From positions 1-63,678 of IMG/VR virus record IMGVR_UViG_3300017565_000005: a stretch of 63,678 nt of DNA. One strand, written 5' to 3'. The stretch comes from a virus (Duplodnaviria > Caudoviricetes). Of the stretch, positions 124 through 63,678 are shown piece by piece; within the stretch, counting starts at the first letter, position 1; the number at the start of each line of letters is the position of its first letter. Under the pieces are notes generated by a model. It had not been told where the DNA came from, ran no database searches, and saw nothing but the letters and a program-made list of their open reading frames with translations. A program made the position numbers and the translations under genes.

Positions 124-373
124 GCGGCCGCCGTTCGACGACGAGCGCACGGTGGTGCAGCAGGTGAACATGGCGCGCAAGACGGCCGAGGAAGTGGCGC
201 TGTCGCAGGCGATCGAGGAACTGCCGCTGGAAGTGTCCGAGGACGAAGCCGAGCAAAACGAGCCGATGAGCCTGTACGACCTGACGGGGGATTACTGGCG
301 CGAGAAAATGCAGAACGAGACGGTCGGCCCGTCAACGCGCCGCGCAACTACCGGATCCAGCCGGGAGAACTGA
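1..373 (+). CDS. Nested +1-frame gene, TnpV-like (3' part; starts at ATG 63500; 142 aa in total)
   Basis: Frame 2 has genome-typical codons while frame 1 becomes A/T-rich at the wobble position; sequence PKTYRQM...LATYLD...VNMARKTAEEVAL resembles the TnpV pattern. Confidence 0.65.
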   Translation, partial: KTYRQMKNRRELATYLDSLTGMAMQSIGTAMSEVTMRAAARRPPFDDERTVVQQVNMARKTAEEVALSQAIEELPLEVSEDEAEQNEPMSLYDLTGDYWREKMQNETVGPSTRRATTGSSREN

Positions 374-3300: not shown

Positions 3301-6300
3301 CAGGGCAACATCAAGGGCATCGACCCGAATGGTTCCCAGCGCGCGCTCGACCTGTTCATGAAGGTCGAATACCTGCGCGGCAAGCGGCCGGGGCGCTCGA
3401 TCACCGGCGCGTCCGGCACGCCGATCACCAACACCATGGGCGAGCTATTCACGGTGCAGCGTTTCTTCCAGCCCGAGCAGCTGGTGGAAGACGGCCTGGA
3501 TACGTTCGACGCTTGGGCCGCGCAGTACGGCGACACGGTGACGGGCCTGGAGCAGGACGCCGCCGGCGGATACGTGCCTGTGACGCGCTTTGCCAAGTTC
3601 CAGAACGTTCCCGAACTGATGCGCCGCGTGCGCTCGTTCATGGACATCGTGACCAACACCAAGCTGGGCGAACTGGTTACTCGGCCGAACGTGAAGGGCG
3701 GATCGCGTCAGATCGTCGTCACGCCCATGCCCGCCGGATATAAAGAGTATCAGGCCCAGCTGGCTGCGCGCATCACAGCTATCAAGAACCGTAGGGGTAA
3801 ACCCCAAAAGGGCGACGACATCATCCTGACCGTCATCAATGACGGGCGGTTTTCCTCGATCGATCTGCGCTTTGTCGATCCGGCCTTGTTGCCGGACCCG
3901 GACAGCAAACTTAACCGGATGATCGACGACATGATCGATGCGTACCGGGCGACGGCCAACAATCAGTACAAGAGCGAGAGCGATGGATCGACCGACCCGA
4001 ACAAGGGATCGACCATTCTGGTGTTTTCCGACATCGGCCTGGGCGAGCAGGCGGCCAAGCGTCGCGGTTTCTCGATGCGAGAATGGATTGAAAAGCGCCT
4101 GACCGACGCTGGAATTCCGCGCGAACACATTGCCTTCATGCGCGACTACAAGCAGCACGCCAAGAAGGGCCGGCTGTTTGCGGACATGCGCGAAGGCAAG
4201 AAGCGCCTGCTGATCGGCGGCAAGGACATGGAAACCGGCGTGAACGTGCAGAAGCGCCTCACGCATATTTTCCACCTTGACGCGCCGTGGTTCCCATCTT
4301 CGGTTGAGCAGCGCGAAGGGCGCGGCGTGCGCCAGGGCAACCAGAACGGCGAAGTCGATATACGGTCCTACGCCACGAAGGGCAGCTACGATTCGACCAT
4401 GTGGGGCATGAATGCCCGCAAGGCCCGCTTCATCGAGCAGGCGATGAGCGGTGATGACAACATCCGCAGCATGGAGGACGTGAGCGAGGCGAGCGCCTTC
4501 GAATTGGCGGCCGCGCTGGCGTCCGGCGACGAGCGTTATCTGAAGCTGGCCGGGCTGCGTGGCGACGTGGAGCGCCTAGGCCGGCTTCGCCAAGCGCATC
4601 ACGACGGCCAGAACCGGATGCAGCGCGATCGCCATTGGGCGGAAAGCGAAATCGATCGCAAGACCAAGCTGGTCAAGCAGTACAAGGATGCGATCGCCAA
4701 GCGCGTTCCGATCCAGGCCGGGGAGTTCGAGGGCAAGATCGGCGGGAAGTCGTTCGACTCGCGCGACGAATTCGGCGTGGCCTTGTTTGATGCCTTCAAG
4801 AAGCTGGTTTCCGAGCAGAGCGAAGCGACGAAGGTGATCGGCCATATCGGCGGGTTCAACATCCGGTTCGACGGCACGCGCGCCGGCAGCGACTTCTTTG
4901 CTGACGTGCATGTTGACGTGCCGGGCGGCGATCCGATCCTGACGTTCCCCATCGAGGATGGCATGTCCGTCAAGGGGCTGGCGACCAAGGCCGCCAATCA
5001 GGTCAACGCGCTCGATCGTCGCCTGACGATGGCCGAGCAGGACATCGAGGCATCCAAGCGTAAGATCGAACAGATCGACGCCCGGTTCGGCGCTCCGTTC
5101 GCGGAAGAAGCCGAATTGATGGACAAGATTGCGCAGCTGAACGACCTTGAGACGGAATTGGCCGCCGAAAGCAAGGAAGCGGAAAGCCAGCAAGCGCCCG
5201 AGCAGCCGAAAACCGAGCCGCCCGGCGATGTCGCCTACAGCGTGCTGCCCGTAACTGAAACGCCGGCATTCAAGAAGTGGTTCGGTGATAGCAAGGTGGT
5301 GGACGCCGAGGGCAAGCCGATGGTTGTATACCACGGCACCCACGGCGACTTTTCTGCGTTCAGGGCTAGTCAGCGCGACAACACTGGAACCGAAAACGAG
5401 GAATTCTTCTTTACTGAATCGTCGAGCGTTGCGAGCGGATACGCATTAATGTCCACGCTTGGCGCTGACATCCGAGCGCTGGAAAATCAACTTGATGCCG
5501 TTCATGATGAAATGGACGCGGTAGAAGCTGCGCGGGAAGCCTATTGGGAAAACAAGAATTGGACTGACGAGCAACACGACCCGTGGGAATATCCCAAAGA
5601 CGATCCGGGTTATGAACCTGAGCCGGATTGGTCGATTAAGCAGGAATCCCTTCGGAAGCGAGAAGCCCGTATCGAGCGACAGATCGAACGGCTGGAAGGC
5701 AAGCGCGATACCACGCGCGGACAGATTCAGGGTGGCGAGAGCGTCTACCCCGTGTATCTGAGCATGCAAAATCCGCTTGTGGTGGATGCTGGGGCTAAGG
5801 GTCGAGGAACGGCCGACGAAATAGCTATCGGCCTTCACTCTCACTTGGTTGAGCAAGCGAAGAAGGATGGACGTGATGGCGTGATCGTGAAGAACGTCCA
5901 CGACTCTCCGGTCGAGACTGATCCGCACACGGTCTACATTGTTTTCCGCCCCGAGCAGATCAAAAGCGCGACCGGCAACCGTGGCACGTTCGACTCGTCC
6001 AATCCTGACATCACATACAGCGTAAAAGCCGATGGCGAAGTTATCAGCGCATCGGCGCGCGGCACGCAGCTTCTGCAAGACCAGACGCCGATGAGCATTC
6101 GCAGCACGCCGGCGCTGCGTGATATGAAAGTGCCGGCCCTGCGAGACCTGATGTTTGCGGATCTGCGCGAGGCGAACGGGCTTTCGCACCCGGACGTAGG
6201 CGACATTTCGATCGGCCGGCGCGGCTGGTCCAAGAGTCGCGCCAATGCCTCGGACCCCGCAAAGCTTCTTATCATCCCGTCGCTTCCGGAAATTATCCGT

Positions 6301-9300
6301 TCCGGGGCTTATCTCGGATCGACCCCGGCGCAGGGCAAGTCGGCGGATATCGTCGGCTACCACTACATCGCTCGCCGCCTGAATGTGGACGGCGTGCCGG
6401 TCATTGCGCTGGTGACGATCGAGGAAAACAGCGCCGGCACACTCAGCTACTACAATCATACGGTCCTGAGCGACAATTTCGCCGCCAAGAGCGACGGCCC
6501 GGCCGATGGCCTGCTTGCCTCGTACCGCCGGCCGATGTTCGCGCCAGACGGGCGCATGACGCGCGGCCAGACCTTGACGGCGGCGCACGCAAGCGTGCGT
6601 GACGCTTTGCGGGCCGGCCCGCTCGGGGCGCTGATCGACAGGCTGATATCCGGCGGGCACATCGTTGTGCATCAAAGCCAGTTGACGCTTCCCGCGTCCA
6701 TGCGTGGCAAATCGGCCCTACAGGGCTTCACCGATAAAGGCATCGTGAACGTCGCGGCCGAAAACCTGACTCCGCAGACGGCCATGCCGGTCCTGCTGCA
6801 CGAGGCCATGCACGCCAAGGGCGAGCAGCTTGTCGGCACGAAGAAGTGGAACGCTTTGAACAAGCGCCTTGAACGCCTGTACAAGGCTGCGCAGGTGCGC
6901 AAGGCCGAGGGCCGCGTTCGCGACGGCGACTATTGGGACGGCGCGCTGCGCCGCGTCAACGCCGCCAAGGACCAGGGCGCGATCAGCCCGGCGCGCGAGG
7001 TCGAGGAATTCGGCACGTACGCGATCGAGAATTACGAACTTGCGCCGTCCGGCATCAAGAAGTGGGTCGACGACTTCATCGGCATGGTCAAGGACTGGCT
7101 GTATCGCCGCTTCGGCATCCAGGCGGGCGAGGTCACGCCGGCGCAGCTGCGCGCCATGGCTATCGCTGCGCTGCGTTCCATGGACGGCACGGCCCCGCAG
7201 TTTTCCAGGGCCATGGGCGGGATGGCGATGAACGACGGAGCGATGAGCGCCGAGGATCGGTATTTCGTCAACGAAGTCCTGTCCGAACTGGCCGCGAACG
7301 ACGAGTTTTTCCGTCATCCACGTTCGACCGGCTACACGCTCGATCGCGTGACCGATGATATGGGGACCGGCCTGACCTATATCGGGGCCGAGCCGATTCT
7401 TGAGAGCGACCAGAACGACTACAACGGGGCCGAGCGCCAGCACCGGCTGCGCACGGCGGCGGGCAACCCCGTGCGCGTGTTCGAGGACAAGAATAGGGTT
7501 TGGCTCGACGTGAGCCGGCTTGACCCTGGCGAGGGCGGGTCTGCCGTGTACGCGGCGATCGCCAATTATGCCTACAACACTGGCAAAACCTTCATCGGCG
7601 ACCCTGACGGGCTATCGGACGAAGCGCTGTACCGGCGCACCGAGGCCATGCTGAATTCGGCGCTGAAATTCGGCACCACGCGCCATCTTGAGCCGCATCC
7701 GTATCAACTTGAGGGCAATGCGGAGCTTGGCGTCGCGCCCCTGAAGTGGCAAAATGGGGAAGATGCCGAAAACGTTCGGTCGATGATCGACGTTGTAACC
7801 CAATTCGTAGACAGCCATGTCCCTGACGCACGCGATGCCACTTTCGACTTCCAGAGCCGAACCTTCCGAACTGGTGAAGGCGAGCCCGTCACTGATGGCG
7901 TGCTTAGAGGGTGGGTGGCCCCTGAAAAAGGTGGAACATTTGGCATTGGCGGCTCTAGTCTTAAAAGAAGCCTGCTGTACAAATCCCTTCTACGCAGCGC
8001 GAGCAGCGAAAGACCCGGATTACTGGAACGAGTTTTCCGTACACATGCCGAACTGGTTGCCGCAGGGGCACCCCTCAATCAGATCAGCTATAGCGTCTCT
8101 GAACGCGAAGAAGCCCTAGACGAGGCTTCTGCTGCCCTGGCCGCCGCCGACGAGCCGGTCGGGCCTGCGCTTACTGACAACTTGGGATCTGCGATCCGCG
8201 ATTTCTACGGCCTGCGCGGTCTGTGGCATCGCTTCATCACGCACCCCTACACGATCGCGGTGCTATTTCCCGAATTCACGCCCGTGTTCAACGCCTTCGA
8301 GGCGCAGAACCGGCAGCGCAACCTGATCATGGAGGATCTGTACCGGGATTTTGCCGACTATCAGGCGCTGTCTGGCGACGAGAAAGAGGGCGTCAACAAG
8401 GTGCTCGAATTGGGCCGGCTCACGTCGAACGTCTATTCGGACGCCGAATTGAAGGCCGGAATCGAAAATCCTGGCTATCGCAACGCCGTGCGCATCGATG
8501 AGGAAGGCAAGGCGCATCGCGTGCGCCAGGACATCAAGACCGGCCTGACGAAAGCTGGCGACAAGATCAACCTGAACCAGAAACAGATCCAGGCGTACAA
8601 GTCGGTGCGCAAGATGTTCGACCGCGCGCTGCAAATGTTCCGCGATCAGATGTTGCAAGAATTCGGCCTTGGCCGGTACGCCGGTCAGCCGAAAGCGGCC
8701 GAGGCCATGATGAAACAGGCCGCCGGCCTGCCCAAGACGAGCGGCGAGCGCGCGCGGCTGGAAGAAATGGCGCAGTTTGTGGCCGACATCGAACAGGCTT
8801 CGCGCACTGGCTACGTCCCGTTCACCCGGTATGGCGACTTCTTCATCGCGGTTAAGGAGAGGCAGGCTGACATCCAGTACAAGCGCGATGGCGACGATTA
8901 TCTCGCCACGGAAGTGCCGCAGGCGCTGGTCGAGTACTTGGATAGCATCGGTGCGAACTACGACAACGAGGCCGACGCATGGCGTCTGACCGAGGACCAG
9001 CGCAAGTCTCTGGAGAAAGAGAACGAAATCGCCATCTACAGCGAGAAAGTGGAAACCGGCATCAAGGACATCTTTGGCCGAAACTCCGTGCGCCGCGTGA
9101 AGAATGAGAAGCGCCCGGTCCACAACATCCCGTCCGTGAAAAAGGCGTTCAAGCGCATCACAGCCGAATACATCGACGGGCACCCCGGCCGGCGATTGGT
9201 GTCTGGCGAGGTCAGCAAGCAGCGCGTCGAAGGCGACATCGACATGCAGGGCCTGGATGCTCTGGCCGAACTTGCCTCGATCGAAAAGGAGGTATGGGGC

Positions 9301-11223
9301 GATATTCGCGAGCGGTTCGGCCAAGTCCTGCAGGCGAGGGGGTTTCGCCGGCACTTCATTCAATCGAGCAACGTGCCGGGGTATTCGACCGACTTCGAGC
9401 GCTCCATGGCCGAGTACATTGTCGGATCTGCCGGGTATCTTGCGCGCCGCCAGCATAGTGAGATGTGGGATAAAGCCGTCCAGGGGATCAAGGGCGAAAA
9501 GCTGAAAGCGTACGCGACGGATTACCGGCAGTACGTGAATGATCCGAGCGAGGAATATTCGCTCATCCGGCAGATCGGCTTTTTCAAATACATAAGCGGC
9601 AACCTTTCGTCCGCGTTCCTGAACGCGACACAGGTGCCGCTGCTGACGATGCCGTTCCTGACCCAAATCACAAGCTATCCGCAGGCATCCGCCCAGGTGG
9701 CGCGCGCCTACAAGGACGCGCTGAGCATCTTGCGCCCCGACCGTGTGGGCATGCACATGTTCGACCTTAAGAGTGCGCCGGCGGACGTACGTGAGGATTT
9801 GATCCGCGCCGGCCAGGAAGGTCTGTTGTTGCCGTTGCAAAGCCTCGAAGTGATGGGCATGGCGAACCGTCGCACGCCCGGCGGGCGGCGCTGGCAGAAA
9901 GGGTTTGATAGCACGGTGCAGTATGCCGGCATTCCGTTTACCGGCATCGAGCGGCTGAATCGCGTCGTGACGTTCATCGCGGCCGCACGGCTTTCCAAGC
10001 AGCCGCGCACGCGCGCCAAGATCGAGCAGGTGTTTCGGGCGAACCCCATGGCGCGGTCGAAACTGCACAATGAGGACGGCAGCTTCAGCACGTACGGTTT
10101 CAGCGAATTCGCTGTGGACGAGACGCAGCTGGTCATGGGCAAGGGCAACCGTCCCACGCTCATGCGCAGCATCGGCACGCCTATCTTCCAGTTCAAGAGC
10201 TTCACCTTCCAGGCGCTGGAGGCGATGTTCATGCGCTTCCCGATGCAGGGCAAGGAAGGCAGGAAAGCGAGGAATCTTGCGCTGATTACGATGATGGTCC
10301 TGTCCGGCTTTTGGGGCCTGCCCGGCATCGACGACCTGCGCGACATTCTTGAGAAATCGTACAAAGGACTCACCGGGAAGGATTTCGATACCCGAGACTG
10401 GGTGCGCCAGAAAATTTACGAAACGACCGATTCTTTGTGGCTGGCGCGGTTCTTTGATATGGGCCTGCCGGCGGCCGGCGTGACGGTGGGCGACACGCAT
10501 ATCGGTGTCGACATGAGCCGGCGTATCGGCATGGGCAACCTGCTGCCAGGATCCGAGTACGAAACGACCGGCATATCCGCCGTCGACAATTATCTGCTCG
10601 GATCGCTCGGGATCCCTGGCGATCTGATTTTTGGCACGACCATTCGCGCCGGACAGCAGTTTCTGCGCGGAGACGTAGGCGGCGCGGTCACGCAGTACAT
10701 GCCGAACTTCGTGGAGAACGCTCGACGTTCGTACGAATGGCACACGAAGGGCGTCCTGACGCGCGCGCAGCGCAAGATGCTCAATCCCGAGGACGTGGAA
10801 ACTTCCTCCATCATCCTGAAGTCGATCGGTTTTCAGCCCACGCAGATATCCGAACTGTATGCCGGCCAAGCGGCCGAGCGGCGCAGCCAGAACGCAATAT
10901 CGCAGCTACGTTCCAATCTGAAAGGCAATCTGGTGCGGGCGCTCGCGGCGGAAATGCGCAACAGCGACCCCGAGAAGGTGGCCGAACTCGGTCATGACGT
11001 GGACAAGGCGTTTCAGGCGATCATCGATCACAACGAGTCGATCACGCGCCCGGAAGACGAAATCAAGGTGACGAACTCGTCGATCCGGCAGATGATGCAG
11101 CGCGAGTTGGGTGGCGTGCCAGCAGCGTTCGGACGGGAGAAGAAGGCGGCTCGCGGAACGGCGCAGGCCCGTCGCCGTGCCTACGACTTGGAGCGCTATC
11201 TGGAGCCCAGGCCGGCCGATTAA
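1..11223 (+). CDS. Giant DarB-like polyvalent internal virion protein, C-terminal part (N6-adenine methyltransferase, SNF2 helicase, ART-like, LPD3-like, zincin, PLxRFG-like domains); continues from 57892
   Basis: Frame 1 is open from base 1. Motifs: EPGMGVG (~724), NPPF (~919), HAVGAGKT (~2779), DEMH (~3259), QREGRGVRQGN, YHGT...GRDG...VFRPEQIKS (~5257-6021), HEAMH (~6799), YVPFTRYG (~8812). Confidence 0.93.
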   Translation, partial: QDVPANEEPARTGDLFGQPDRDGDAVDRHSDERSDDAGSSEAAAVRRRAHGGAAGEHGAQDGRGSGAVAGDRGTAAGSVRGRSRAKRADEPVRPDGGLLARENAERDGRPVNAPRNYRIQPGELTREGSWKVTAERNVSIVELVKRLESENRMATPEEKALMTRFTGWGASEIANGVFPDQHGRFKPGWEALGERLKAALTEEEYANAQRSTQYAHYTSEGVIRSIFAGLERFGFKGGQIVEPGMGVGLFAGLMPDAIAAHSTYTGIEFDNITGAIAKHLYPQSNIIVGDFTRTNLPTNYFDAAIGNPPFSSTVISNDPEYKRHRFMLHDYFFAKTIDRVRPGGVVVFVTSKGTMDKASDKARKYLADRANLIGAVRLPQTAFKDNAGTEVVTDVLFLQKKGEGVEDNGVSWLGLKEVNTKGGEPTQVNEYFAAHPEMVLGEHSMTGSMYRANEYTVEPRAGEDIEQAFAKAVQSLPEGIYNPERGTKADKAKVIERDFNPTNRKEGGLYLSEDGTLMQVENGSGVPVTKRKSADGKKTIDLSAKQIGWLKDYVGLRDALKQAQYDQLNDGDWQASLKALNDVYDKFVKKHGQILSHTIIERENKDGTTSVTQRFKNQQLWEMDAEGALVFGIERTKPDGTVTKGPVFSERVLKRPTEPEIKTTQDALMVSLNRLGRLDIDDVAKLAGLPRDEAIDALGTAIYEDPSVGWQMADEYLSGNVVRKLEQARTAADLNKKYARNIDALLAVQPRPLGPTDITVRLGANWVPASDIADFAQEIMNERIDVTYQPITGEWTAVGHGSVAGSEWAAGNMSPSAVLDAVLNSRQLKVTYRDADGKPHTDPVATEQANDVARKMKEAFSRWVWTNPERSDRLTRYYNENFNNIAPRQYDGSHLTLPGVSLRFTLHPHQKRAVWRGIQDGDVYLAHAVGAGKTIEMIASGMEQRRLGLISKPIYTVPNHMLAQFSNEFLELYPTAYIMVADEQNFHTSNRRRFIAQASLNNPDAIVITHSAFGRIGMSDEFADAFVRRQIDEWQTALKDASDQITKKQIQRRIEELERRLEGKQSKEKKDQVLTFEELGADYIFVDEMHEFRKLDFATNQGNIKGIDPNGSQRALDLFMKVEYLRGKRPGRSITGASGTPITNTMGELFTVQRFFQPEQLVEDGLDTFDAWAAQYGDTVTGLEQDAAGGYVPVTRFAKFQNVPELMRRVRSFMDIVTNTKLGELVTRPNVKGGSRQIVVTPMPAGYKEYQAQLAARITAIKNRRGKPQKGDDIILTVINDGRFSSIDLRFVDPALLPDPDSKLNRMIDDMIDAYRATANNQYKSESDGSTDPNKGSTILVFSDIGLGEQAAKRRGFSMREWIEKRLTDAGIPREHIAFMRDYKQHAKKGRLFADMREGKKRLLIGGKDMETGVNVQKRLTHIFHLDAPWFPSSVEQREGRGVRQGNQNGEVDIRSYATKGSYDSTMWGMNARKARFIEQAMSGDDNIRSMEDVSEASAFELAAALASGDERYLKLAGLRGDVERLGRLRQAHHDGQNRMQRDRHWAESEIDRKTKLVKQYKDAIAKRVPIQAGEFEGKIGGKSFDSRDEFGVALFDAFKKLVSEQSEATKVIGHIGGFNIRFDGTRAGSDFFADVHVDVPGGDPILTFPIEDGMSVKGLATKAANQVNALDRRLTMAEQDIEASKRKIEQIDARFGAPFAEEAELMDKIAQLNDLETELAAESKEAESQQAPEQPKTEPPGDVAYSVLPVTETPAFKKWFGDSKVVDAEGKPMVVYHGTHGDFSAFRASQRDNTGTENEEFFFTESSSVASGYALMSTLGADIRALENQLDAVHDEMDAVEAAREAYWENKNWTDEQHDPWEYPKDDPGYEPEPDWSIKQESLRKREARIERQIERLEGKRDTTRGQIQGGESVYPVYLSMQNPLVVDAGAKGRGTADEIAIGLHSHLVEQAKKDGRDGVIVKNVHDSPVETDPHTVYIVFRPEQIKSATGNRGTFDSSNPDITYSVKADGEVISASARGTQLLQDQTPMSIRSTPALRDMKVPALRDLMFADLREANGLSHPDVGDISIGRRGWSKSRANASDPAKLLIIPSLPEIIRSGAYLGSTPAQGKSADIVGYHYIARRLNVDGVPVIALVTIEENSAGTLSYYNHTVLSDNFAAKSDGPADGLLASYRRPMFAPDGRMTRGQTLTAAHASVRDALRAGPLGALIDRLISGGHIVVHQSQLTLPASMRGKSALQGFTDKGIVNVAAENLTPQTAMPVLLHEAMHAKGEQLVGTKKWNALNKRLERLYKAAQVRKAEGRVRDGDYWDGALRRVNAAKDQGAISPAREVEEFGTYAIENYELAPSGIKKWVDDFIGMVKDWLYRRFGIQAGEVTPAQLRAMAIAALRSMDGTAPQFSRAMGGMAMNDGAMSAEDRYFVNEVLSELAANDEFFRHPRSTGYTLDRVTDDMGTGLTYIGAEPILESDQNDYNGAERQHRLRTAAGNPVRVFEDKNRVWLDVSRLDPGEGGSAVYAAIANYAYNTGKTFIGDPDGLSDEALYRRTEAMLNSALKFGTTRHLEPHPYQLEGNAELGVAPLKWQNGEDAENVRSMIDVVTQFVDSHVPDARDATFDFQSRTFRTGEGEPVTDGVLRGWVAPEKGGTFGIGGSSLKRSLLYKSLLRSASSERPGLLERVFRTHAELVAAGAPLNQISYSVSEREEALDEASAALAAADEPVGPALTDNLGSAIRDFYGLRGLWHRFITHPYTIAVLFPEFTPVFNAFEAQNRQRNLIMEDLYRDFADYQALSGDEKEGVNKVLELGRLTSNVYSDAELKAGIENPGYRNAVRIDEEGKAHRVRQDIKTGLTKAGDKINLNQKQIQAYKSVRKMFDRALQMFRDQMLQEFGLGRYAGQPKAAEAMMKQAAGLPKTSGERARLEEMAQFVADIEQASRTGYVPFTRYGDFFIAVKERQADIQYKRDGDDYLATEVPQALVEYLDSIGANYDNEADAWRLTEDQRKSLEKENEIAIYSEKVETGIKDIFGRNSVRRVKNEKRPVHNIPSVKKAFKRITAEYIDGHPGRRLVSGEVSKQRVEGDIDMQGLDALAELASIEKEVWGDIRERFGQVLQARGFRRHFIQSSNVPGYSTDFERSMAEYIVGSAGYLARRQHSEMWDKAVQGIKGEKLKAYATDYRQYVNDPSEEYSLIRQIGFFKYISGNLSSAFLNATQVPLLTMPFLTQITSYPQASAQVARAYKDALSILRPDRVGMHMFDLKSAPADVREDLIRAGQEGLLLPLQSLEVMGMANRRTPGGRRWQKGFDSTVQYAGIPFTGIERLNRVVTFIAAARLSKQPRTRAKIEQVFRANPMARSKLHNEDGSFSTYGFSEFAVDETQLVMGKGNRPTLMRSIGTPIFQFKSFTFQALEAMFMRFPMQGKEGRKARNLALITMMVLSGFWGLPGIDDLRDILEKSYKGLTGKDFDTRDWVRQKIYETTDSLWLARFFDMGLPAAGVTVGDTHIGVDMSRRIGMGNLLPGSEYETTGISAVDNYLLGSLGIPGDLIFGTTIRAGQQFLRGDVGGAVTQYMPNFVENARRSYEWHTKGVLTRAQRKMLNPEDVETSSIILKSIGFQPTQISELYAGQAAERRSQNAISQLRSNLKGNLVRALAAEMRNSDPEKVAELGHDVDKAFQAIIDHNESITRPEDEIKVTNSSIRQMMQRELGGVPAAFGREKKAARGTAQARRRAYDLERYLEPRPAD

Positions 11224-17083: not shown

Positions 17084-17099
17084 TTTTCAAGGAAAGGAA

Positions 17100-17612: not shown

Positions 17613-17633
17613 GGGGAAACCCTAATCAATCCC

Positions 17634-17653: not shown

Positions 17654-17677
17654 CAACGCAGTGACAAGGAGAGGGAA

Positions 17678-18418: not shown

Positions 18419-18473
18419 TTTTGCATCGCGTGGTGAGAAATCATCACGCGATACCTTCCGATTGTGAGGAAAT

Positions 18474-19681: not shown

Positions 19682-19682
19682 T

Positions 19683-20543: not shown

Positions 20544-20545
20544 AT

Positions 20546-20950
20546 ATGCGAATGCCGGCGCGGCGTCGATCGCCTGAATTCAGCGAGCAGTGCGCACTGT
20601 TTCTTTGGGCACGCAATCCGGCAACGCTCAGAAAATACCCCGAGCTTCGCCTGCTGTCGTGCAGCCTGAACGGTGTGAAGCTGAGCAAGGCGCAGGCCGG
20701 CAAAGCCAAGGCAGCGGGCATGCTGGCGGGCGAGCATGACGTGCGCCTGCCGGTGGCGCGCGGCACGTACACGTCGCTCTCGATCGAAATGAAAGCGGGC
20801 GACAATCAGCCCACGAAGGCGCAGCTGGAGTACGGCGCGCTGCTTGAGGCCGAGGGCGGCTGCGTCCGTTACTGCTGGTCATGGATCGAAGCAAAGGAGG
20901 CGATCGAGCATTACCTGGGGCTGGGCAAGCCTGAATTTCTACGCCCGTAG
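20546..20950 (+). CDS. VRR-NUC (PD-(D/E)xK) nuclease / resolvase
   Basis: EFSEQ...GMLAGEHDV...IEMKAG...PTKAQ. Confidence 0.82.
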   Translation: MRMPARRRSPEFSEQCALFLWARNPATLRKYPELRLLSCSLNGVKLSKAQAGKAKAAGMLAGEHDVRLPVARGTYTSLSIEMKAGDNQPTKAQLEYGALLEAEGGCVRYCWSWIEAKEAIEHYLGLGKPEFLRP

Positions 20951-20987
20951 TGGTGAGAAAATATCACTACGGGCATTCGGAGAGGGG

Positions 20988-23441: not shown

Positions 23442-23448
23442 GCTTGAT

Positions 23449-57891: not shown

Positions 57892-60800
57892 GTGGCAGAC
57901 AACAACACGTTCGGCCTGAACCCACTTGATCGTGCGATTGCCGACACTGAATCGAGCTTCGAGCCGATCGGCATCGATTTCCAGCGCCAGAACACGCCGG
58001 CCCCTGAGATTGATGCGCGCCAGGCTGACCCGCAGCCCAAGCCGGCACGGGTAAGCGGCAGGGCCGCAGGTGGTCTTGCGCCCCCGAACGCGCTCATGCC
58101 GTTGTTTGAAGGGGCCGCTCGAAAATACGATGTTCCGGTCAACGTCATCATGGCGCTGGCGCAGCAGGAATCGAACTACAACTCCCAAGCCATGGGCTCG
58201 CAGACCAAGTGGGGCCGGGCCATGGGCATGATGCAGTACCTGAATTCCACGGCCAAGGGCCTTGGCATCAACCCGTTCGTGCCCGAGCAGGCGATCGACG
58301 CGGCCGCGATGCAGATCCGCCAGCGCCTGGACAAGGGATACTCGATCGAGGACGCGGTAAAGGAACACTTCGCCGGCCCGGATCGCCGGCTGTGGGGACC
58401 GAAGACCCGCCAGTACGGCATCGACGTGATGAGGAAGGCGCGCGCGCTGTCGGGGCTGTACGGCAGCGGCGCGGACAGTTCGTTCCTCACGCAGGGTCCA
58501 ATGTCCACGGTGCAGGATGGCCCGATGTCTGTGCCTGCCGGCACGGATACGCGCGACTTGAACCTGACCATGCCGAACGTGCAGGACGACCAGGACGCGC
58601 GCGTCGCGGCGCAGATGGCCGAACTGGATCGCCAGGACGGCAAGAATTACATACTGCGCACCAACCCCGGCATGATCGAGCCGGGCAATCTGGACCTGAA
58701 TAACCGTCCTGTCGTCAAGAACGATGATGGATCGATCAGCACGGTACGCTCCATGTCGATCAACATGGACGGCAAGGAATACCTGATTCCGACCATCGGC
58801 CTTGATGGCAAGGTGCTGAACGATGATGAGGCGGTCGAGAATTTCAAGAAGACTGGCCAGCATCTTGGTGTATTCGAGAACGCCGAGAGCGCGACGAAGT
58901 ACGCCGAGAAGCTACATGAGCAGCAGGCCAAGCAGTACGGGCGTCCCGGCGTACTGACGCAGGCGGCCAACGATGCGCTGCGCGGTTTCAGCAACCTGAA
59001 AAATATCGGTGTCGGGCTGGCGGCGCTGGGTGCCGATCTTGTGGGCGCGGACAAGACCGCCGACAGGCTGCTGCAAACCTACATGGACAACGCGGCCGAC
59101 ATCGCCAAGAACAACCCGGCGGTCATCGGCACGTACAAGAACATAAAGTCGCTTGGCGATGCCGGGCGCTATGCGATCGAGGCGGTGGCCGAGAACTTGC
59201 CGATGATGGTTCCGTCGCTTTTGACGGGCGGCATCGGCGCGGCGCTGGCGAAAAAAACGGCCGAGCGCGCCGTCACGCAGTTCATAGAAGGTCAGGTTTC
59301 CAAGGGCGTTGCGCGCGAACTGGCCGAGAAGCAGGCGGCGAAACTTGCCGCGCGGCGCATTCTTGTCGCCAGCGGTGGCGGTGCGGCGCTGTCTTCGATC
59401 GGGATCGAGTCGGGCAACATCTACGGCGACACGTTCCGCGAAACGGGCAAGAAAGCGCCTGGTTTGTCGGTGGCGTTTGGTGTGCCGGCCGGCGTTCTCG
59501 ACGCGATCGAGCCCGTGTATGCGCTCTCGAAGATTGCCGGCCCCGCCGTCAAGCAGCTGGCCGGCGGCATCATCAAGCGCATGGGCAAGGAAGCCGGCAA
59601 GCAGTTCCTGATCGAGGCGGGAACCGAGGGCTTGCAGTCGATGCTGGAGGCCGCACCCAAGTCGATCACCACGGGCAAGCCGTACTGGACCGAGGAATTG
59701 CTCGATGATGTCATCGACTCGGTACTCAAAGGCGGCTTGGCTGGCGGTACGTTCGGCGCTGCGACCGCGCCGTTTCATGGTAGCGGATCTGGCGAAGCGC
59801 CCGCTGCGCCGCCAGCCGGGCCTGCCGTCGAGCCGCCCGCCGCGCCAGCGCCGGGTACGGAGCAGGTTTCGACCGCTCCCAATGGTGACACGGTACGCTG
59901 GACGGAGCCGTCCGAGCCCGACACGCGCGGCCCGCTCACGCGCGCCATGGAGGTTGGCGAGAACGTCGCCGCCAGCAAGCGCGTCGTCGTCACCACGCCG
60001 GCCGGGCAGATAACCGGATTTCTGGAATCGCTCAACGAGGACGGCCAGGGCGGATTCGTCGCTCGCGTGCTGGGCTATGATGGTCAGTATCACCAGTTCA
60101 CGCACAACGATCCGGTCAAGATCCAGACCGAAGCAGCCGCGATGGCAGAACGCCGTGCGCAGATTGAAAGTCAGGAGGTTGTTGATCCTGAAACCGGCGA
60201 AATTCTTACGCAGGAGCCCGCACATGCAGCAGATGATGATGGACGTGAATCAGGCGCTGAGGCTGTTGCGACAGGTGAAGGCGGTGTCGCCGGCGCAGTC
60301 GAAGATGCTGCTGCGCTGCCTGAGAGCGGGCCGGCCGATACCGCCAAGGCTAAACGGCCTGTGCGAAAAGCTGTACCTGCTACAGATCAAGCCTCCGACC
60401 GACAGCCGGCACTAGAAGAACCCGTTGCCGTCGAGGATATGACGGCCGAGCAGTTGGCCGAGCGCCGTGAATACTTGTCGGAGCAGGCCAAGTTAAACGG
60501 CGGATGGAATAAAGCGCTGATACGCGAGCGCACAAAGGTAGAGTCCGCCCAGCGCAAGCTGACACAATCAGAGTCAGCTGGGAACAGGCCCGGAGACGAT
60601 GCAGGGAATGGGTTTAAGGTTGGGCCACAAGATGGGGAGCGCTATCGAGTAAGCATTGTGCCCGGTCTTGGCAGTGCGGTGGCACTGGAAAAGCGGCTAC
60701 CTGCTGGAACGGCGGCAACCTTCTATGTCGGCAAAGATGGCAACCTGATTGATGGTGATGACGTAGATGTTTCCAAAGAAAGCAGTAGATCCAGGGTTTG

Positions 60801-63678
60801 GATACCCGAAAGTCAAGATGCGTCCAATGAGGCAATGTCCATTCTGGATCAGATGGGCATGCTTCCGCTTGACAGCCCAAAACGCAGGGAACTCAAGAGC
60901 CGATTGAAGGCGCTTGTCACCGGCCATCCGACGCAGCAGCCGCAGGTTTCGCTAAATAGCGATGCGACCGCTGCACAACCGGCGCAGGAAGCGGACAATA
61001 GGACCGCGCCCGCCGTCACGCCGCGCGAAACCAGCATCACGACGCCCGAGGGTAAACCCTTGGTCGAGCTTTTCCATCCCGCCGAAGGGATGCGCGTGTG
61101 GGTGCGAAAGGATCAATGGGATGCCGGCCAGGAAAAGCTGGCCGCGTTTTCCGAATCCGGCGCGCGCCGCTTCGGATCTGGACAGAACGTACAGCGCAAG
61201 GCGCTGACCGACCCTGTGCCGGAAGCGGACGCGAAGCCGGCTGAAGTCGTTGCCGAGCCGGCCCCAGCGCCGGCCAAGCCGAAAACCGTCAGCAAGGAAG
61301 AAGCGGAACACCTGTTCGGCGTCGATCAGAAACGGGAAAAGGCGCTGGAGCGCATCGCCAAGGGCCGCGCATGGTTTGGCGATCAGAAAAAGGCGCGCGA
61401 GTTCATCGCCAAGAACGGGCTGAAAGATACGCACGCGGTCGAGCAGACCGGCGCAAAGCGGTTCGAGGTCAAGACTAAGGACACGGCGGCGGTAGACAAG
61501 GCTGCGACCGCTATAAACGAAAATATTGCCCATGCGATTGATGACGCTACTGCGCTATCGAAACTGGTAGATGACGCAAACCAGCGGACCCAAGCCGAAG
61601 TCGAATCCATCAAGCAGCAAGCACGGGACGCAGCGGAACGCGGCGCGCCACGCCGGCCACCTGCCGGTCTTGGTGAGGTATATAAGGAGGTCTGGCGGCT
61701 TGAATTTGATGATGCACGCCGCTCGAAAGATCAGCAGGCGGTTACTGGCGATGACACCGGGGCCGCGGCCAAGCGCTTCGAGGTCAAGGCGAAGGCGACG
61801 GAAGATGGCGCGGCCGCCATCCGCAAGGCCGGATCGGTTGTCTCAGAGGACGCGACGCCGGCATTAGGCGCGCTCTACCATGGATCGCCGGCTGCGTTTG
61901 AAATATTCCGCGATCCTGTAGGCGAGGATCGTAAAGGCGGTGCTGGATACGATCACCAGGGGCGCGGGATTTATCTGACGAGCGATCCGAACGGATTTGG
62001 CAGGTTCTTTGCGACGGATCCGCGCGCGAAACTTGCCATGTCCTTGCACAGCGAAGGAAAGGCCGAGGAAGCCGAAGCCGTGATGGACGGCCCCGGCTTT
62101 GTGATGGGCGTCAAGCTTGCCGACGACGCGAAGATTCTTGATGTCGAGCGCGCTCCAAAAGCGATCAAAGACCTTTTCGACCGCAGTGTTGGCGATACCG
62201 AAGTTGGCGATCAATTGCGTCAGTCGGTGATCGACGCAGGATATGACGGCATCGTTTTCAAGGAGCCGAACTATCCCGAAGGCTGGGAAGTGTCGCAAGA
62301 CGCGCGTACAGTCGTCGTCTACAAAGCCGATAAGGCGAAAATCACGGATCGCCGCGAGGCGCGTGAGTACGAACTGCCAATGGGGTGGTCGGAACGCGGT
62401 GAGGGCGGACGTACCGCCGGCGAACCAGCACCTTCTGCTGCCCAAAGTGGTGAGAAAACTGCACCAAATAAATCTGCGCCAGAACTTTTGCGCGAGGCAG
62501 TCCAGCAGCAGACCGAAAAGAAACCCGTCACGGTTACGCGCACTCCCGGCGTTACCACCATCGTTATCGACCCGAGTGCGATGTCGCCGGACCCGACCGC
62601 ACCGACCGAGCAGAATGTCGCGCCCGAGTCGAAGCCGGCTGACGATCGCTTTGCCAAGAACAAAATATTCACCACCGACAAGGTCGCGGCGGCGCGCGCG
62701 TTGATGCGCTCCAAGTTCGGGCAACTGAACAGCGGCTTTGACCCGGAAATGATGGTCGCCGGCGCGACGATCGCTGGCGCGTACATCGAATCCGGCGTGC
62801 GCGACTTTTCCGCCTACGCCAAAGCCATGATCGACGACTTTGGCGAAGGCGTGAGGCCATACCTGCTTTCGTTTTGGGAGGGCGTGCGCAGCTATCCGGG
62901 GCTGGACACCAAGGGCATGACGGATGTGGATGAGTCCCGCCGGCAGTTCGACGCCATCATCGGCGCCGAGCCCGTGAAGTCCGAGGCGGTTGGCGATGTT
63001 GTGAAAAAGCCCGCCAAGCGCACCAAGAAAACCGGCAAGGCTGTCGACCGCGTACTGACCCAGGATTGGGGTGTTGATCATATCGATGCCTATTCCGAGG
63101 AAGGCGAGCAGGTCAAAGACCAATTCATCAAGGAATCGCGTTCGTACCTGAATGCCGTGGCCGGCATCCTGATGGAGAACGGCTACACGCCGCACATGGA
63201 CAAGAAGGGTCGCCCGGAGCGCCCGGTGCGCGTCAACGAGGGTGGCATAGCGGTATCGGGCGACGTTTCCCTGGTCCTGGCCGGCCCCGGCGACGTGGGC
63301 GCATACATTAATATAGGCGGATCTGCGCTGCGCGGCGTGGTCCCGACGACGCCAAGCGGCGTTGCCATTATGTTCCGCGCGGCGCAAAATAGTGATAAAT
63401 TCGGTGTAAAAGGCACAAATCAGTGGGCACCCGTAGACCTTTCGGCGGCGGATTTCGCTGCCCTGGTCGACACCCACATTCAACGCGAGGCCAATCGAAA
63501 TGAACGACCGGCAACTACGGCAGACGCTGGATCTGGCGTTCAAGGATCGAGCGCCCAAGACGTACCGGCAAATGAAGAACCGGCGCGAACTGGCGACTTA
63601 TTTGGACAGCCTGACCGGGATGGCGATGCAGTCGATCGGCACAGCGATGAGCGAAGTGACGATGCGGGCAGCAGCGAG
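57892..63678 (+). CDS. Giant DarB-like polyvalent protein, N-terminal part (SLT transglycosylase, hydrophobic region, ART-like domain); continues across the junction to 11223
   Basis: GTG start; AARKYDV...AQQESNYN...AMGMMQY (SLT, ~58096-58440); LYHGS...GIYLT...GYDGIVF (~61870-62345); absent from the ORF track because no stop occurs before the window end. Confidence 0.9.
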   Translation, partial: MADNNTFGLNPLDRAIADTESSFEPIGIDFQRQNTPAPEIDARQADPQPKPARVSGRAAGGLAPPNALMPLFEGAARKYDVPVNVIMALAQQESNYNSQAMGSQTKWGRAMGMMQYLNSTAKGLGINPFVPEQAIDAAAMQIRQRLDKGYSIEDAVKEHFAGPDRRLWGPKTRQYGIDVMRKARALSGLYGSGADSSFLTQGPMSTVQDGPMSVPAGTDTRDLNLTMPNVQDDQDARVAAQMAELDRQDGKNYILRTNPGMIEPGNLDLNNRPVVKNDDGSISTVRSMSINMDGKEYLIPTIGLDGKVLNDDEAVENFKKTGQHLGVFENAESATKYAEKLHEQQAKQYGRPGVLTQAANDALRGFSNLKNIGVGLAALGADLVGADKTADRLLQTYMDNAADIAKNNPAVIGTYKNIKSLGDAGRYAIEAVAENLPMMVPSLLTGGIGAALAKKTAERAVTQFIEGQVSKGVARELAEKQAAKLAARRILVASGGGAALSSIGIESGNIYGDTFRETGKKAPGLSVAFGVPAGVLDAIEPVYALSKIAGPAVKQLAGGIIKRMGKEAGKQFLIEAGTEGLQSMLEAAPKSITTGKPYWTEELLDDVIDSVLKGGLAGGTFGAATAPFHGSGSGEAPAAPPAGPAVEPPAAPAPGTEQVSTAPNGDTVRWTEPSEPDTRGPLTRAMEVGENVAASKRVVVTTPAGQITGFLESLNEDGQGGFVARVLGYDGQYHQFTHNDPVKIQTEAAAMAERRAQIESQEVVDPETGEILTQEPAHAADDDGRESGAEAVATGEGGVAGAVEDAAALPESGPADTAKAKRPVRKAVPATDQASDRQPALEEPVAVEDMTAEQLAERREYLSEQAKLNGGWNKALIRERTKVESAQRKLTQSESAGNRPGDDAGNGFKVGPQDGERYRVSIVPGLGSAVALEKRLPAGTAATFYVGKDGNLIDGDDVDVSKESSRSRVWIPESQDASNEAMSILDQMGMLPLDSPKRRELKSRLKALVTGHPTQQPQVSLNSDATAAQPAQEADNRTAPAVTPRETSITTPEGKPLVELFHPAEGMRVWVRKDQWDAGQEKLAAFSESGARRFGSGQNVQRKALTDPVPEADAKPAEVVAEPAPAPAKPKTVSKEEAEHLFGVDQKREKALERIAKGRAWFGDQKKAREFIAKNGLKDTHAVEQTGAKRFEVKTKDTAAVDKAATAINENIAHAIDDATALSKLVDDANQRTQAEVESIKQQARDAAERGAPRRPPAGLGEVYKEVWRLEFDDARRSKDQQAVTGDDTGAAAKRFEVKAKATEDGAAAIRKAGSVVSEDATPALGALYHGSPAAFEIFRDPVGEDRKGGAGYDHQGRGIYLTSDPNGFGRFFATDPRAKLAMSLHSEGKAEEAEAVMDGPGFVMGVKLADDAKILDVERAPKAIKDLFDRSVGDTEVGDQLRQSVIDAGYDGIVFKEPNYPEGWEVSQDARTVVVYKADKAKITDRREAREYELPMGWSERGEGGRTAGEPAPSAAQSGEKTAPNKSAPELLREAVQQQTEKKPVTVTRTPGVTTIVIDPSAMSPDPTAPTEQNVAPESKPADDRFAKNKIFTTDKVAAARALMRSKFGQLNSGFDPEMMVAGATIAGAYIESGVRDFSAYAKAMIDDFGEGVRPYLLSFWEGVRSYPGLDTKGMTDVDESRRQFDAIIGAEPVKSEAVGDVVKKPAKRTKKTGKAVDRVLTQDWGVDHIDAYSEEGEQVKDQFIKESRSYLNAVAGILMENGYTPHMDKKGRPERPVRVNEGGIAVSGDVSLVLAGPGDVGAYINIGGSALRGVVPTTPSGVAIMFRAAQNSDKFGVKGTNQWAPVDLSAADFAALVDTHIQREANRNERPATTADAGSGVQGSSAQDVPANEEPARTGDLFGQPDRDGDAVDRHSDERSDDAGSSE
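60224..60415 (+). CDS. Nested +1-frame 63-aa gene inside the giant gene
   Basis: CAGGAG SD 7 nt before ATG; genome-typical codons in frame 2 while frame 1 wobble turns A/T. Confidence 0.6.
   Translation: MQQMMMDVNQALRLLRQVKAVSPAQSKMLLRCLRAGRPIPPRLNGLCEKLYLLQIKPPTDSRH
63500..63678 (+). CDS. Nested TnpV-like gene, 5' part (ends at 373)
   Basis: GAGG SD 9 nt before ATG; MNDRQLRQTLDLAFKDRAPKTYRQMKNRREL. Confidence 0.65.
   Translation, partial: MNDRQLRQTLDLAFKDRAPKTYRQMKNRRELATYLDSLTGMAMQSIGTAMSEVTMRAAA
63556..63678. repeat. Terminal direct repeat (assembly overlap), identical to 1-123
   Basis: Exact sequence identity. Confidence 0.97.

What the first reader, a model, noticed from the sequence alone, without database searches (positions are those of the whole stretch)
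60224..60415. Second nested +1-frame gene with a strong SD inside the giant gene
Seen: CAGGAG-7nt-ATG opens MQQMMMDVNQALRLLRQVKAVSPAQSKMLLRCLRAGRPIPPRLNGLCEKLYLLQIKPPTDSRH. It uses CTG/GTG/AAG-type codons while frame 1 becomes an acidic low-complexity linker with A/T wobble. Together with the TnpV-like ORF this suggests a design in which disordered linkers of the polyvalent protein host small overprinted genes. Its SD is also a CAGGA motif.
Basis: partly seen in the sequence, partly recalled or inferred. Interest (0 to 1): 0.7.

Follow-up and report, generated by a model that had tools for sequence, protein, structure and literature searches.

The report
Hidden small gene inside giant phage gene
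A 63-codon reading frame hidden out of frame inside a phage's giant virion-protein gene looks like a real, conserved small gene, and the same hidden gene sits in the giant genes of at least fourteen other phage genomes where it has never been annotated.

Summary
AGGAG (60212-60216), 7 nt, then ATG 60224 to TAG 60415 encodes 63 aa in the +1 frame of a giant gene. That gene is about 5,628 codons and DarB-like, in a circular podophage genome of about 63.6 kb.

Taken alone the ORF is unremarkable. Synonymous shuffling gives P(>=64 codons) = 0.72.

Comparison changes the verdict. The +1 product has full-length homologues, always in the +1 frame of a giant gene, in 14 other contigs or genomes. These include the cultured Erwinia phages PEp14, Pavtok and Stean (DarB-like gene) and S6 and Fifi011 (N4-type virion RNA polymerase gene).
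- A profile built without the window finds the window ORF at E = 1.3e-16.
- The frame-0 peptide from the same DNA finds nothing (best E = 0.11).
- In three sets of close relatives, variable sites move from the giant frame's wobble position in the flanks to its first position inside the ORF (Fisher p = 2.6e-5, 5.8e-4, 5e-6).
- A GGAG Shine-Dalgarno lies upstream of the start in 13 of 15, and all 15 end with His-stop.
- AlphaFold gives a three-helix bundle (pLDDT 82) for the +1 frame and disorder (pLDDT 57) for frame 0.

Expression and function are untested. No known family matches.

The parts
60212..60216 (+). Shine-Dalgarno AGGAG, 7 nt upstream of the nested start. In the giant frame it is formed by a Gln-Glu codon pair (CAG GAG).
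   Evidence: One search shows the sequence. GGAG lies at -17..-4 of the start in 13 of 15 family members, against a per-contig chance of 0.017-0.062. GGAG is depleted genome-wide: 117 observed against about 387 expected from base composition.
60224..60415 (+). Nested +1-frame gene of 63 codons plus TAG. The product is predicted as three helices (residues 8-17, 23-35, 41-55) followed by a conserved C-terminal tail ending PPTxSxH.
   Evidence: A leave-one-out profile gives E = 1.3e-16. tblastn gives 4e-8 to 1.4e-6 against L003 and L009-L012. AlphaFold gives pLDDT 81.9 and pTM 0.59.
60223..60414 (+). The same DNA read in the giant frame: a 64-residue Ala/Gly/Asp/Glu/Pro-rich linker. It lies between a small conserved domain (about 59920-60130) and a conserved helical module (about 60430-60540).
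   Evidence: Searches show that the linker is hypervariable in length and sequence in 16 relatives. The frame-0 peptide's best tblastn hit is E = 0.11. AlphaFold gives pLDDT 56.9, pTM 0.13 and no secondary structure.
57892..63678 (+). N-terminal 1929 codons of the host gene, a giant DarB-like / polyvalent virion protein. It continues in frame at 124..11223 once the 123-nt terminal overlap of the contig is collapsed, giving about 5,628 codons.
   Evidence: Pfam finds SLT at residues 71-149. tblastn matches genes annotated as DarB-like antirestriction in PEp14, Bcep22, Pavtok and others.

Best explanation
Window 60224-60415 is a genuine protein-coding gene lying entirely inside, and +1 out of frame with, the giant DarB-like virion-protein gene of a podophage.

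Inferred mechanism:
1. The late mRNA of the giant gene carries an internal ribosome-binding site (AGGAG, 7 nt, AUG).
2. Ribosomes that start there make a 63-residue three-helix protein with a conserved unstructured C-terminal tail (PPTxSxH-COOH).
3. Ribosomes already elongating the giant frame read the same bases as a disordered acidic Ala/Gly-rich linker, which tolerates almost any sequence.

Selection acts mainly on the small gene. The linker reading is the passenger, and the giant gene probably grew by reading through a pre-existing small gene.

What is shown: conservation of the frame, SD, start and stop; purifying selection on the +1 frame; and a confident fold. What is inferred: that it is translated, and what it does.

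My best guess for function, held at about one in three, is a protein-binding accessory factor made together with the giant ejected protein. It could act as a chaperone or a capsid-incorporation or ejection helper, analogous in role to the small partners that phage P1 DarB needs.

The confidence given here is for 'a real, selected overlapping gene', not for the guessed function.
For: 1. The +1 product, not the frame-0 product, is what relatives conserve.
- tblastn of the 63-aa product against 19 loci gives L003 4e-8 (39% identity, 61 aa, ungapped), L009-L012 1e-7 to 1.4e-6, S6 2e-5 and Fifi011 7.5e-4.
- The frame-0 peptide of the same 192 nt has a best hit of 0.11, at an unrelated place.
- Elsewhere in the giant gene, off-frame hits are by-products: frame 0 is 10 or more orders of magnitude stronger there.

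2. A profile built without the window hits the window ORF at E = 1.3e-16 (56.9 bits) among 1136 six-frame ORFs. The next best hit is 0.014.

3. Fifteen contigs or genomes carry it, always +1 inside a giant ORF. They are the window, L003, L004, L006, L007, L008, L009-L012, PEp14, Pavtok, Stean, S6 and Fifi011. Of the 8 relatives found through frame-0 homology, 5 hold it in the fetched stretch.

4. The selection pattern switches at the ORF boundaries.
- L007 vs L008: in the flanks 98 of 124 variable sites fall at giant codon position 3. Inside the ORF only 2 of 12 do, and 6 of 12 fall at giant position 1, which is the nested wobble (p = 2.6e-5).
- L009-L012: 7 of 25 inside against 40 of 57 just downstream (p = 5.8e-4).
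- PEp14, Pavtok and Stean: 23 of 67 inside against 357 of 561 in the flanks (p = 5e-6).
- In L009-L012, the 6 variable sites in the first 120 nt are all synonymous in the nested frame and all non-synonymous in the giant frame.

5. GC by nested codon position is 0.62-0.67 / 0.23-0.40 / 0.84-0.90 in four distant members.

6. GGAG lies at -17..-4 in 13 of 15 members. The start is ATG in 11 and GTG in 4. All 15 end ...H-stop.

7. AlphaFold with a 7-row alignment gives pLDDT 81.9, pTM 0.59 and three helices. The matched frame-0 control gives 56.9 and 0.13, with no secondary structure.
Against: - There is no direct evidence of translation. No RNA run was listed, and no proteomic data were seen.
- On the window sequence alone, the length of the ORF and the SD-ATG pair are within chance. 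Its codon score is only 0.097 per codon, against 0.2-0.55 for clear genes.
- The window has no close relative, so selection is shown for the family and not for this copy. Other soil runs hold identical sequence.
- In S6 vs Fifi011 the nested region differs at 73 of 222 sites, spread evenly over codon positions (27, 24, 22). The nested protein is only modestly better conserved than frame 0 there (43 of 74 against 35 of 74).
- S6 and Fifi011 lack GGAG upstream of the start.
- Across L009-L012 and the Pavtokvirus trio most changes are non-synonymous in both frames (8 synonymous / 17 non-synonymous, and 14 / 53, in the nested frame).
- Three relatives (L001, L002, L005) show no copy in the fetched stretch.
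- The proposed function has no support from fold, family or co-folding searches.
Confidence: 0.85

Rival explanations
1. Chance open frame. A linker poor in hydrophobic residues and rich in GNN codons has few NTN codons. It therefore produces few +1 stops and G-ending +1 codons, and the SD is just a Gln-Glu codon pair.
For: NTN codons make up 11% of the ORF span against 23.6% in the giant gene. Synonymous shuffles keep at least 64 codons open in 72% of trials. Fifteen +1 ORFs of 80 or more codons exist in the giant gene.
Against: This cannot explain full-length, ungapped +1-frame similarity at E = 4e-8, or a profile hit at E = 1.3e-16, where frame 0 is not alignable. It also cannot explain a conserved stop position, a conserved GGAG, or the codon-position switch.
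Confidence: 0.02
2. The family is real, but the conserved reading is reached by programmed +1 ribosomal frameshifting from the giant frame. An internal SD can stimulate this, as in prfB. The result would be a truncated giant protein with a three-helix C-terminal end, not a free 63-aa protein.
For: An SD-like element a few bases upstream of a frame change is the known stimulator in prfB and dnaX (recalled, not looked up). The +1 frame is open for 70 codons upstream of the ATG in the window.
Against: A start codon sits 6-9 nt after the GGAG in all 13 members that have GGAG. In L006 a +1-frame stop lies two codons before the ATG, leaving no room to shift in. No 0-frame stop or slippery run is seen at the window site. 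+1-frame similarity starts at the ATG and not upstream of it.
Confidence: 0.04
3. Fossil. A small gene was swallowed when two modules of the giant gene fused through it. Its frame still looks coding, but in this phage it is no longer expressed or needed.
For: The nested frame carries the ancestral-looking codon signature. The window copy has no close relative in which to test current selection. Its codon score is weak.
Against: The window copy keeps the SD, the ATG, the stop and every invariant residue of the family. In three other lineages selection on the +1 frame is ongoing among close relatives. A fossil at 30-40% protein identity would be expected to carry stops or indels.
Confidence: 0.07
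4. The conservation reflects a nucleic-acid element (RNA structure, packaging or regulatory site) or a constraint on the giant protein, not a +1 protein.
For: The region is an island of low variation within a hypervariable linker in L009-L012: 25 of 189 sites vary, against 120 of 300 just upstream.
Against: Variation has a three-base periodicity, with the freest position at the nested wobble. Similarity is detectable at protein level between members whose DNA differs at 40-60% of sites at every codon position. The amphipathic helical pattern folds with confidence. The frame-0 peptides are not alignable.
Confidence: 0.02

Closest known systems
Rz1 embedded in Rz (two-component spanin genes of lambda-like and Bcep22-like phages)
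   Same: A small phage gene lies wholly inside a larger gene, on the same strand and in the +1 register, with its own start. The embedded class is described for the Lessievirus lysis cassettes in passages of PMC9144972. It is annotated in PEp14 and Bcep22.
   Different: The host gene here is the giant virion (DarB-like or vRNAP) gene, not the lysis cassette. The product has no signal peptide or lipobox cysteine context and is predicted as a soluble three-helix bundle. There is no sequence relation: Pfam, PHROGs and PDB-sequence searches are all empty.
Small accessory proteins of the phage P1 Dar antirestriction system (Hdf, Ulx, DdrA, DdrB)
   Same: These are small proteins needed alongside a giant DarB-type virion protein. 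A passage of PMC9144972 states that no homologues have been identified in Lessieviruses. A hidden small gene inside the DarB-like gene could fill that kind of role. This is a 'works like' hypothesis only.
   Different: No sequence or fold relation was tested against the P1 proteins, which were not fetched. The P1 genes are separate genes, not nested ones. The family also occurs in N4-type vRNAP genes, which have no Dar function.
Overprinted (de novo) overlapping genes of viruses
   Same: Two proteins are read from one DNA stretch in different frames. One of them is ordered and the other is disordered and compositionally odd. The general picture comes from the listings and abstract starts of PMC8227390 and PMC6195259.
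   Different: By the usual criteria the novel frame is the disordered one with atypical codon usage. Here that is the giant gene's linker, and the small gene looks like the older reading. The same small gene also sits in two unrelated giant host genes, and at different positions relative to frame-0 modules.

Membership tests
Embedded +1-frame overlapping gene (architecture class, as Rz1 in Rz) | The whole coding sequence lies inside another gene, on the same strand and in the +1 register. | tested here: met
   for the window. The same holds in 14 other contigs or genomes.
Embedded +1-frame overlapping gene (architecture class, as Rz1 in Rz) | Its own ribosome-binding site and start codon. | tested here: met
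   AGGAG-7-ATG in the window. GGAG lies at -17..-4 in 13 of 15 members. This is sequence evidence only; initiation has not been measured.
Embedded +1-frame overlapping gene (architecture class, as Rz1 in Rz) | Purifying selection on the embedded frame. | tested here: met
   A codon-position switch appears in three sets of close relatives, with p = 2.6e-5, 5.8e-4 and 5e-6. It was not testable for the window copy itself.
o-spanin (Rz1) | Lipoprotein signal peptide with a lipobox Cys, and a location in the lysis cassette. | tested here: not met
   The product starts MQQMMMDVNQ, has no hydrophobic signal segment and is predicted helical and soluble. The host gene is the giant virion gene. No signal-peptide predictor was run.
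De novo overprinted gene (the nested frame as the younger one) | The younger frame shows atypical codon usage and a disordered product. | tested here: not met
   The nested frame has the genome-typical GC1/2/3 pattern and a confident fold. The giant frame over the same bases has GC3 of 0.23-0.42 and is predicted disordered.
Programmed +1 frameshift site (prfB type) | A shift-prone codon with a 0-frame stop or hungry codon just after an SD-like element, and no independent start needed. | tested here: not met
   No 0-frame stop is seen at the site. A start codon is conserved at SD spacing. In L006 a +1 stop lies two codons before the ATG.
Helix-turn-helix / sigma region 4-like DNA-binding domains | Structural match to a three-helix HTH, and a conserved basic surface. 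| tested here: inconclusive
   The best VIA-align Z is 4.3, and several sigma-4/HTH chains score Z 3.2-4.0, within noise for helical models. Foldseek gives E >= 3.8 against PDB and >= 0.39 against BFVD. Net charge is not conserved: the window member is basic, while L004, L006 and L007 are acidic.
TnpV (PF14198) | Pfam match above the gathering score. | tested here: not met
   This ORF has no Pfam hit at E <= 1, either alone or among the 9 members scanned. The weak TnpV hit (E = 0.1, 13 bits against a cut-off of 27) belongs to the other nested ORF.

The most novel reading that the evidence does not exclude
The giant ejected-protein genes of podophages are composite genes whose 'disordered linkers' are small genes read through in another frame. 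This covers the DarB-like polyvalent proteins of the Bcep22 / PEp14 group and at least some N4-type virion RNA polymerases. Each giant gene would hide several conserved, never-annotated proteins: at least two families here, possibly three. These could be the missing helpers that fold, load into the capsid or eject the giant protein.
Probability: 0.3. Interest if true: 0.88.

Novelty: new variant of a known kind. Interest (0 to 1): 0.78.

Why it matters
- Gene finders forbid genes nested inside genes. None of the annotated records seen lists this ORF, and no protein in a 5.8-billion-cluster library matches it.
- The family shows that the largest genes of common soil and plant-pathogen phages carry conserved hidden coding capacity.
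- It offers a concrete candidate for the unidentified partners of DarB-like proteins.
- It gives a clean natural system for asking how a ribosome-binding site works inside a heavily translated 17-kb ORF.
- It also suggests one way polyvalent proteins are built: modules fuse by reading across small genes.
- Five cultured carriers (PEp14, Pavtok, Stean, S6, Fifi011) make this directly testable.

Tried and rejected
- **My first reading was a chance ORF, at about 80%.** It rested on the shuffle test, ORF-length ranks and SD counts. I abandoned it.
- **Close relatives of the window were sought and not found.**
  - Megablast of the giant gene against the phage and plasmid collections found no match.
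  - The search for related loci with the frame-0 segment found one distant viral contig, L001, in which the ORF start falls in a 34-aa gap.
  - The same search found nothing in genome contigs or metagenome contigs.
- **Public runs.** Six rows from 3 studies hold the stretch, and no RNA holder is listed. Contigs of four runs laid on 59000-61500 showed no other letters. One 640-nt contig of X3 covers 60076-60715 identically. There is therefore no polymorphism to analyse and no expression information.
- **Protein library searches** found nothing with the 112-aa +1 product, with alignment A3 at near lengths, or with A6 at longer lengths. No stand-alone or in-frame fused form was seen. The tool itself calls the 'longer' result weak evidence.
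- **tblastn of members from L006, L007 and L009** against cultured phages found no match. The S6 member in viral contigs returned only S6 itself.
- **Fold searches** gave no convincing match. The ESM Atlas gave no usable hit. Pfam, PHROGs and the PDB sequence profile gave nothing: the best results were phrog_25026 at E = 0.28 in 1 of 9 members and CorA at E = 0.019.
- **Co-folding** of the nested protein (A6) with the flanking giant-protein segment (A1) returned 'no answer', with score 0.00 in two runs. This is not evidence either way.
- **Promoter scan.** No sigma-70-type promoter lies in 59600-60700. The scan does not cover phage-specific promoters.
- **Supplementary files of papers** were not consulted. 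Virion proteome tables of Bcep22-like phages might hold unassigned spectra that bear on expression.
Full report
**What is there**

The window is a whole one-contig genome of 63,678 bp with 60.5% GC. Its first and last 123 nt are identical, which is the overlap of a circular assembly. An ORF opening at 57892 runs off the end of the window and continues in frame at the start. With the overlap collapsed it is 5,628 codons without a stop.

Pfam recognises only a lytic transglycosylase domain at residues 71-149. tblastn links the N- and C-terminal parts of the first 1,929 residues to genes annotated as 'DarB-like antirestriction' in Erwinia phages PEp14, Pavtok and Stean, in Burkholderia phage Bcep22 and its kin, in Pseudomonas phage Itty13 and in others. 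The host gene is therefore the giant virion protein of a Bcep22 / PEp14-type podophage from soil.

The finding is exactly as described:
- CAGGAG lies at 60211-60216.
- Seven bases follow, then ATG at 60224.
- The ORF has 63 codons and ends at TAG 60413-60415.
- It is +1 relative to the giant frame.

**Single-sequence tests**

On its own the ORF is not remarkable.
- Its stop-to-stop frame (133 codons) is tied third of 175 +1 frames in the giant gene.
- With the protein and codon usage of the giant gene held fixed, 2,000 synonymous shuffles give a median of 77 open codons at this place, with P(>=133) = 0.055 and P(>=64) = 0.72.
- The reason is mechanical. A +1 stop needs a T at the second position of a giant-frame codon, and only 11% of codons in this linker are NTN, against 23.6% overall.
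- The SD is a Gln-Glu codon pair, and the genome holds seven AGGAG-N5-9-ATG sites.

- Giant-frame GC3 falls to 0.42-0.43 here, against 0.745 overall.
- This is one of only two places in the 17-kb gene where the +1 frame beats frame 0 in a codon log-odds model: 2 of 561 windows here and 15 of 561 at the other nested ORF.
- The margin here is small, at 0.097 per codon, while clear genes score 0.2-0.55.

At this point I rated it about 80% chance.

**Relatives**

The window phage has no close relative in the collections. Other soil runs hold identical sequence only.

A scan of 1.84 billion representative proteins with the frame-0 segment found 49 relatives. They conserve a small domain before the ORF and a helical module after it. 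The linker between them varies from about 25 to more than 250 residues and is not alignable in any of the 16 relatives aligned.

An alignment of those modules retrieved seven more viral contigs with DNA. When I ran the 63-aa +1 product against them, it matched L003 over 61 residues without a gap (39% identity, E about 1e-8). The match is in the +1 frame of L003's giant ORF and ends at the same His-stop. Weaker +1-frame matches appeared in L004 and L006.

Follow-up searches added:
- L009-L012;
- L007 and L008, found by profile and not used in training (E = 1e-9 and 1e-8);
- the cultured Erwinia phages PEp14 (profile E = 7.6e-7), Pavtok and Stean (68% and 64.5% identity to the PEp14 copy over all 76 residues);
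- Erwinia phages S6 and Fifi011.

In S6 and Fifi011 the ORF sits +1 inside the N4-type virion RNA polymerase gene. It ends with the same ...RPIPPxL...KLYL...PPTDSxH-stop as the window copy.

In total 15 contigs or genomes carry it. Of the 8 relatives found through frame-0 homology, 5 hold it within the stretch fetched. L001, L002 and L005 do not.

**Is the +1 similarity a by-product of frame-0 homology?**

It is not. Over the same 192 nt, the nested peptide scores 4e-8 to 1.4e-6 against L003 and L009-L012. The frame-0 peptide's best hit anywhere is 0.11, and at the homologous places it is 0.5-0.8.

As a control I ran every +1 and +2 ORF of 50 or more codons in the giant gene against the same loci. 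Off-frame hits are common, but frame 0 is then 10 or more orders of magnitude stronger. The only ORFs that depart from this are this one, the second nested ORF and one unresolved case at 7811-8119.

A profile built without the window finds the window ORF at E = 1.3e-16 among 1,136 six-frame ORFs of the genome. A profile built without the N4-type members finds S6 at 2.1e-8 and Fifi011 at 9.6e-6, within the 43 six-frame ORFs of those two loci.

**Selection**

In a gene read in one frame, differences between close relatives pile up at codon position 3. That holds in the flanks of the nested ORF and fails inside it.

| Comparison | Flanks: variable sites at giant position 3 | Inside the ORF: at giant position 3 | Fisher p |
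|---|---|---|---|
| L007 vs L008 | 98 of 124 | 2 of 12 (6 of 12 at giant position 1, the nested wobble) | 2.6e-5 |
| L009-L012 | 40 of 57 (300 nt downstream) | 7 of 25 | 5.8e-4 |
| PEp14, Pavtok, Stean | 357 of 561 | 23 of 67 | 5e-6 |

In L009-L012, the six variable sites of the first 120 nt are all silent in the nested frame and all change the giant protein.

Across four distant members, GC at nested codon positions is 0.62-0.67 / 0.23-0.40 / 0.84-0.90. That is the normal coding pattern of these genomes, shifted by one base.

Not everything is clean.
- The C-terminal third varies in both frames.
- In S6 vs Fifi011 the region differs at 73 of 222 sites, spread evenly over the three positions. 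Nested identity is 43 of 74, against 35 of 74 for frame 0.

**Signals**

A GGAG lies between -17 and -4 of the start in 13 of 15 members, with spacers of 6-9 nt. The chance per contig is 0.017-0.062, given each contig's GGAG density. S6 and Fifi011 have GAAGAAG there instead.

The motif is kept even though the giant-frame codons that carry it differ: CAG-GAG, AAG-GAG, GCG-GAG and ATG-GAG. In the window genome GGAG is strongly depleted, at 117 against about 387 expected.

The start is ATG in 11 members and GTG in 4. All 15 end with His followed by a stop.

In L006 a +1-frame stop lies two codons before the ATG. This rules out entry by frameshifting there and argues for independent initiation.

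No sigma-70-like promoter lies nearby. Translation would therefore start inside the giant gene's own mRNA.

**Product**

With a 7-row alignment, AlphaFold gives pLDDT 81.9 and pTM 0.59. It predicts helices at residues 8-17, 23-35 and 41-55 and a floppy conserved tail.

The matched control is the frame-0 reading of the same DNA from the same loci. It gives pLDDT 56.9, pTM 0.13 and no secondary structure.

Nothing known matches the product:
- Pfam, PHROGs and PDB sequence profile;
- Foldseek against PDB and BFVD, and VIA-align (best Z 4.3);
- the ESM Atlas.

Net charge is not conserved between members. This speaks against DNA binding and for a protein-protein role.

**How it most likely works, and where it came from**

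Shown:
- It is a conserved, selected, foldable +1 reading with conserved translation signals.

Inferred:
- Initiation occurs on the late giant-gene mRNA.
- The giant frame reads the same bases as a tolerant disordered linker.

The small gene has the genome-typical codon pattern and an ordered product, while the giant frame is disordered with an aberrant wobble position. I therefore infer that the small gene is the older reading and that the giant gene grew across it. This fits three observations:
- The cassette lies before the helical module in the window, but after it in L003, L007, L008 and PEp14.
- It lies beside other modules in L004, L006 and L009-L012.
- It sits in a different giant gene altogether in S6 and Fifi011.

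Function is open. Both host genes encode very large proteins that are carried in the capsid and ejected into the cell. The vRNAP role comes from the abstracts of PMC4496689 and PMC11445570. The DarB-like role comes from passages of PMC9144972. The same paper notes that P1 DarB needs the small partners DdrA, DdrB, Hdf and Ulx, and that no homologues are known in Lessieviruses.

My best guess, at about one in three, is a helper of the giant protein made from the same message. The main alternative is an unrelated small phage protein that merely uses unconstrained linker DNA as coding space. The one co-folding job gave no answer.

**Comparison with what is known, and novelty**

Architecturally this is the Rz1-in-Rz arrangement: a gene fully embedded in +1 with its own start. 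It is not a spanin and has no relative in any library searched.

Four full-text searches returned nothing describing a gene nested in a DarB-like or virion RNA polymerase gene. I read only listings, abstract starts and the passages named above. None of the seven annotated records fetched lists such a gene.

I rate it a new variant of a known kind. The confidence of 0.85 is for a real, selected overlapping gene. Expression and function remain to be shown.

Noticed in passing
It is 183 codons as assembled and 142 once the 123-nt contig overlap is collapsed, with GAGG 9 nt before the ATG. Its codon score is like that of real genes (0.28-0.34 per codon), while the giant frame scores about 0 there. 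It has +1-frame homologues in L005 (4653-4937) and inside Bcep22 gp75 (L018 16374-16697, AGGAGG-9-ATG, 107 aa). The alt-frame E is 3.6e-11, against 5e-4 for frame 0. The Pfam TnpV hit is only E = 0.1.
   Followed up: partly
window 7811-8119 (+ strand, +1 frame of the giant gene): This may be a third nested ORF of 102 codons. The giant-frame codon score is about 0.006 per codon and GC3 is 0.51. The alt-frame tblastn hit to PEp14 (L017 24499-24711) is 1e-8, against 2.8e-14 for frame 0, a much smaller gap than for ordinary by-product hits. It is unresolved.
   Followed up: partly
window 1-123 and 63556-63678: The first and last 123 nt are identical. This is a circular-assembly overlap, or possibly a short terminal repeat. 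The true length would then be 63,555 bp, and 41 codons of the giant ORF and of the second nested ORF are counted twice in the window.
   Followed up: yes
whole window: GGAG and CTCC are strongly depleted on the + strand: 117 and 70, against about 387 and 311 expected from base composition. CTCCT occurs once, against 16 expected under a third-order Markov model. AGGAG occurs 25 times on + and once on -. AGCTC and GAGCT are also low. This could reflect restriction avoidance or SD avoidance. It is unexplained.
   Followed up: no
window 60173-60178: A second AGGAGG lies 39 nt upstream of the nested SD, also made by a Gln-Glu pair. It has no well-spaced start codon. Two of the six AGGAG sites inside the 17-kb giant gene cluster here.
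   Followed up: no
window 60190-60207 (giant frame): A short linear motif D-x-E-T-G-E-[IV]-L lies just upstream of the nested start. It is shared with two otherwise unalignable linkers, in P0003 and P0030.
   Followed up: no
L019 (Pseudomonas phage Itty13, NC_070969) locus 12827-24085: The record annotates three long CDS (gp01-gp03) on the strand opposite to where homology with the giant protein lies. These are probably antisense ORFs called in place of the giant gene.
   Followed up: no
L001 about 2774-2916: In this distant relative the giant reading switches frame just after the helical module: one ORF ends at 2916 and a +1 ORF is open from 2774. This is either a real split of the giant gene or a sequencing frameshift. 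No copy of the nested family was detected there.
   Followed up: no
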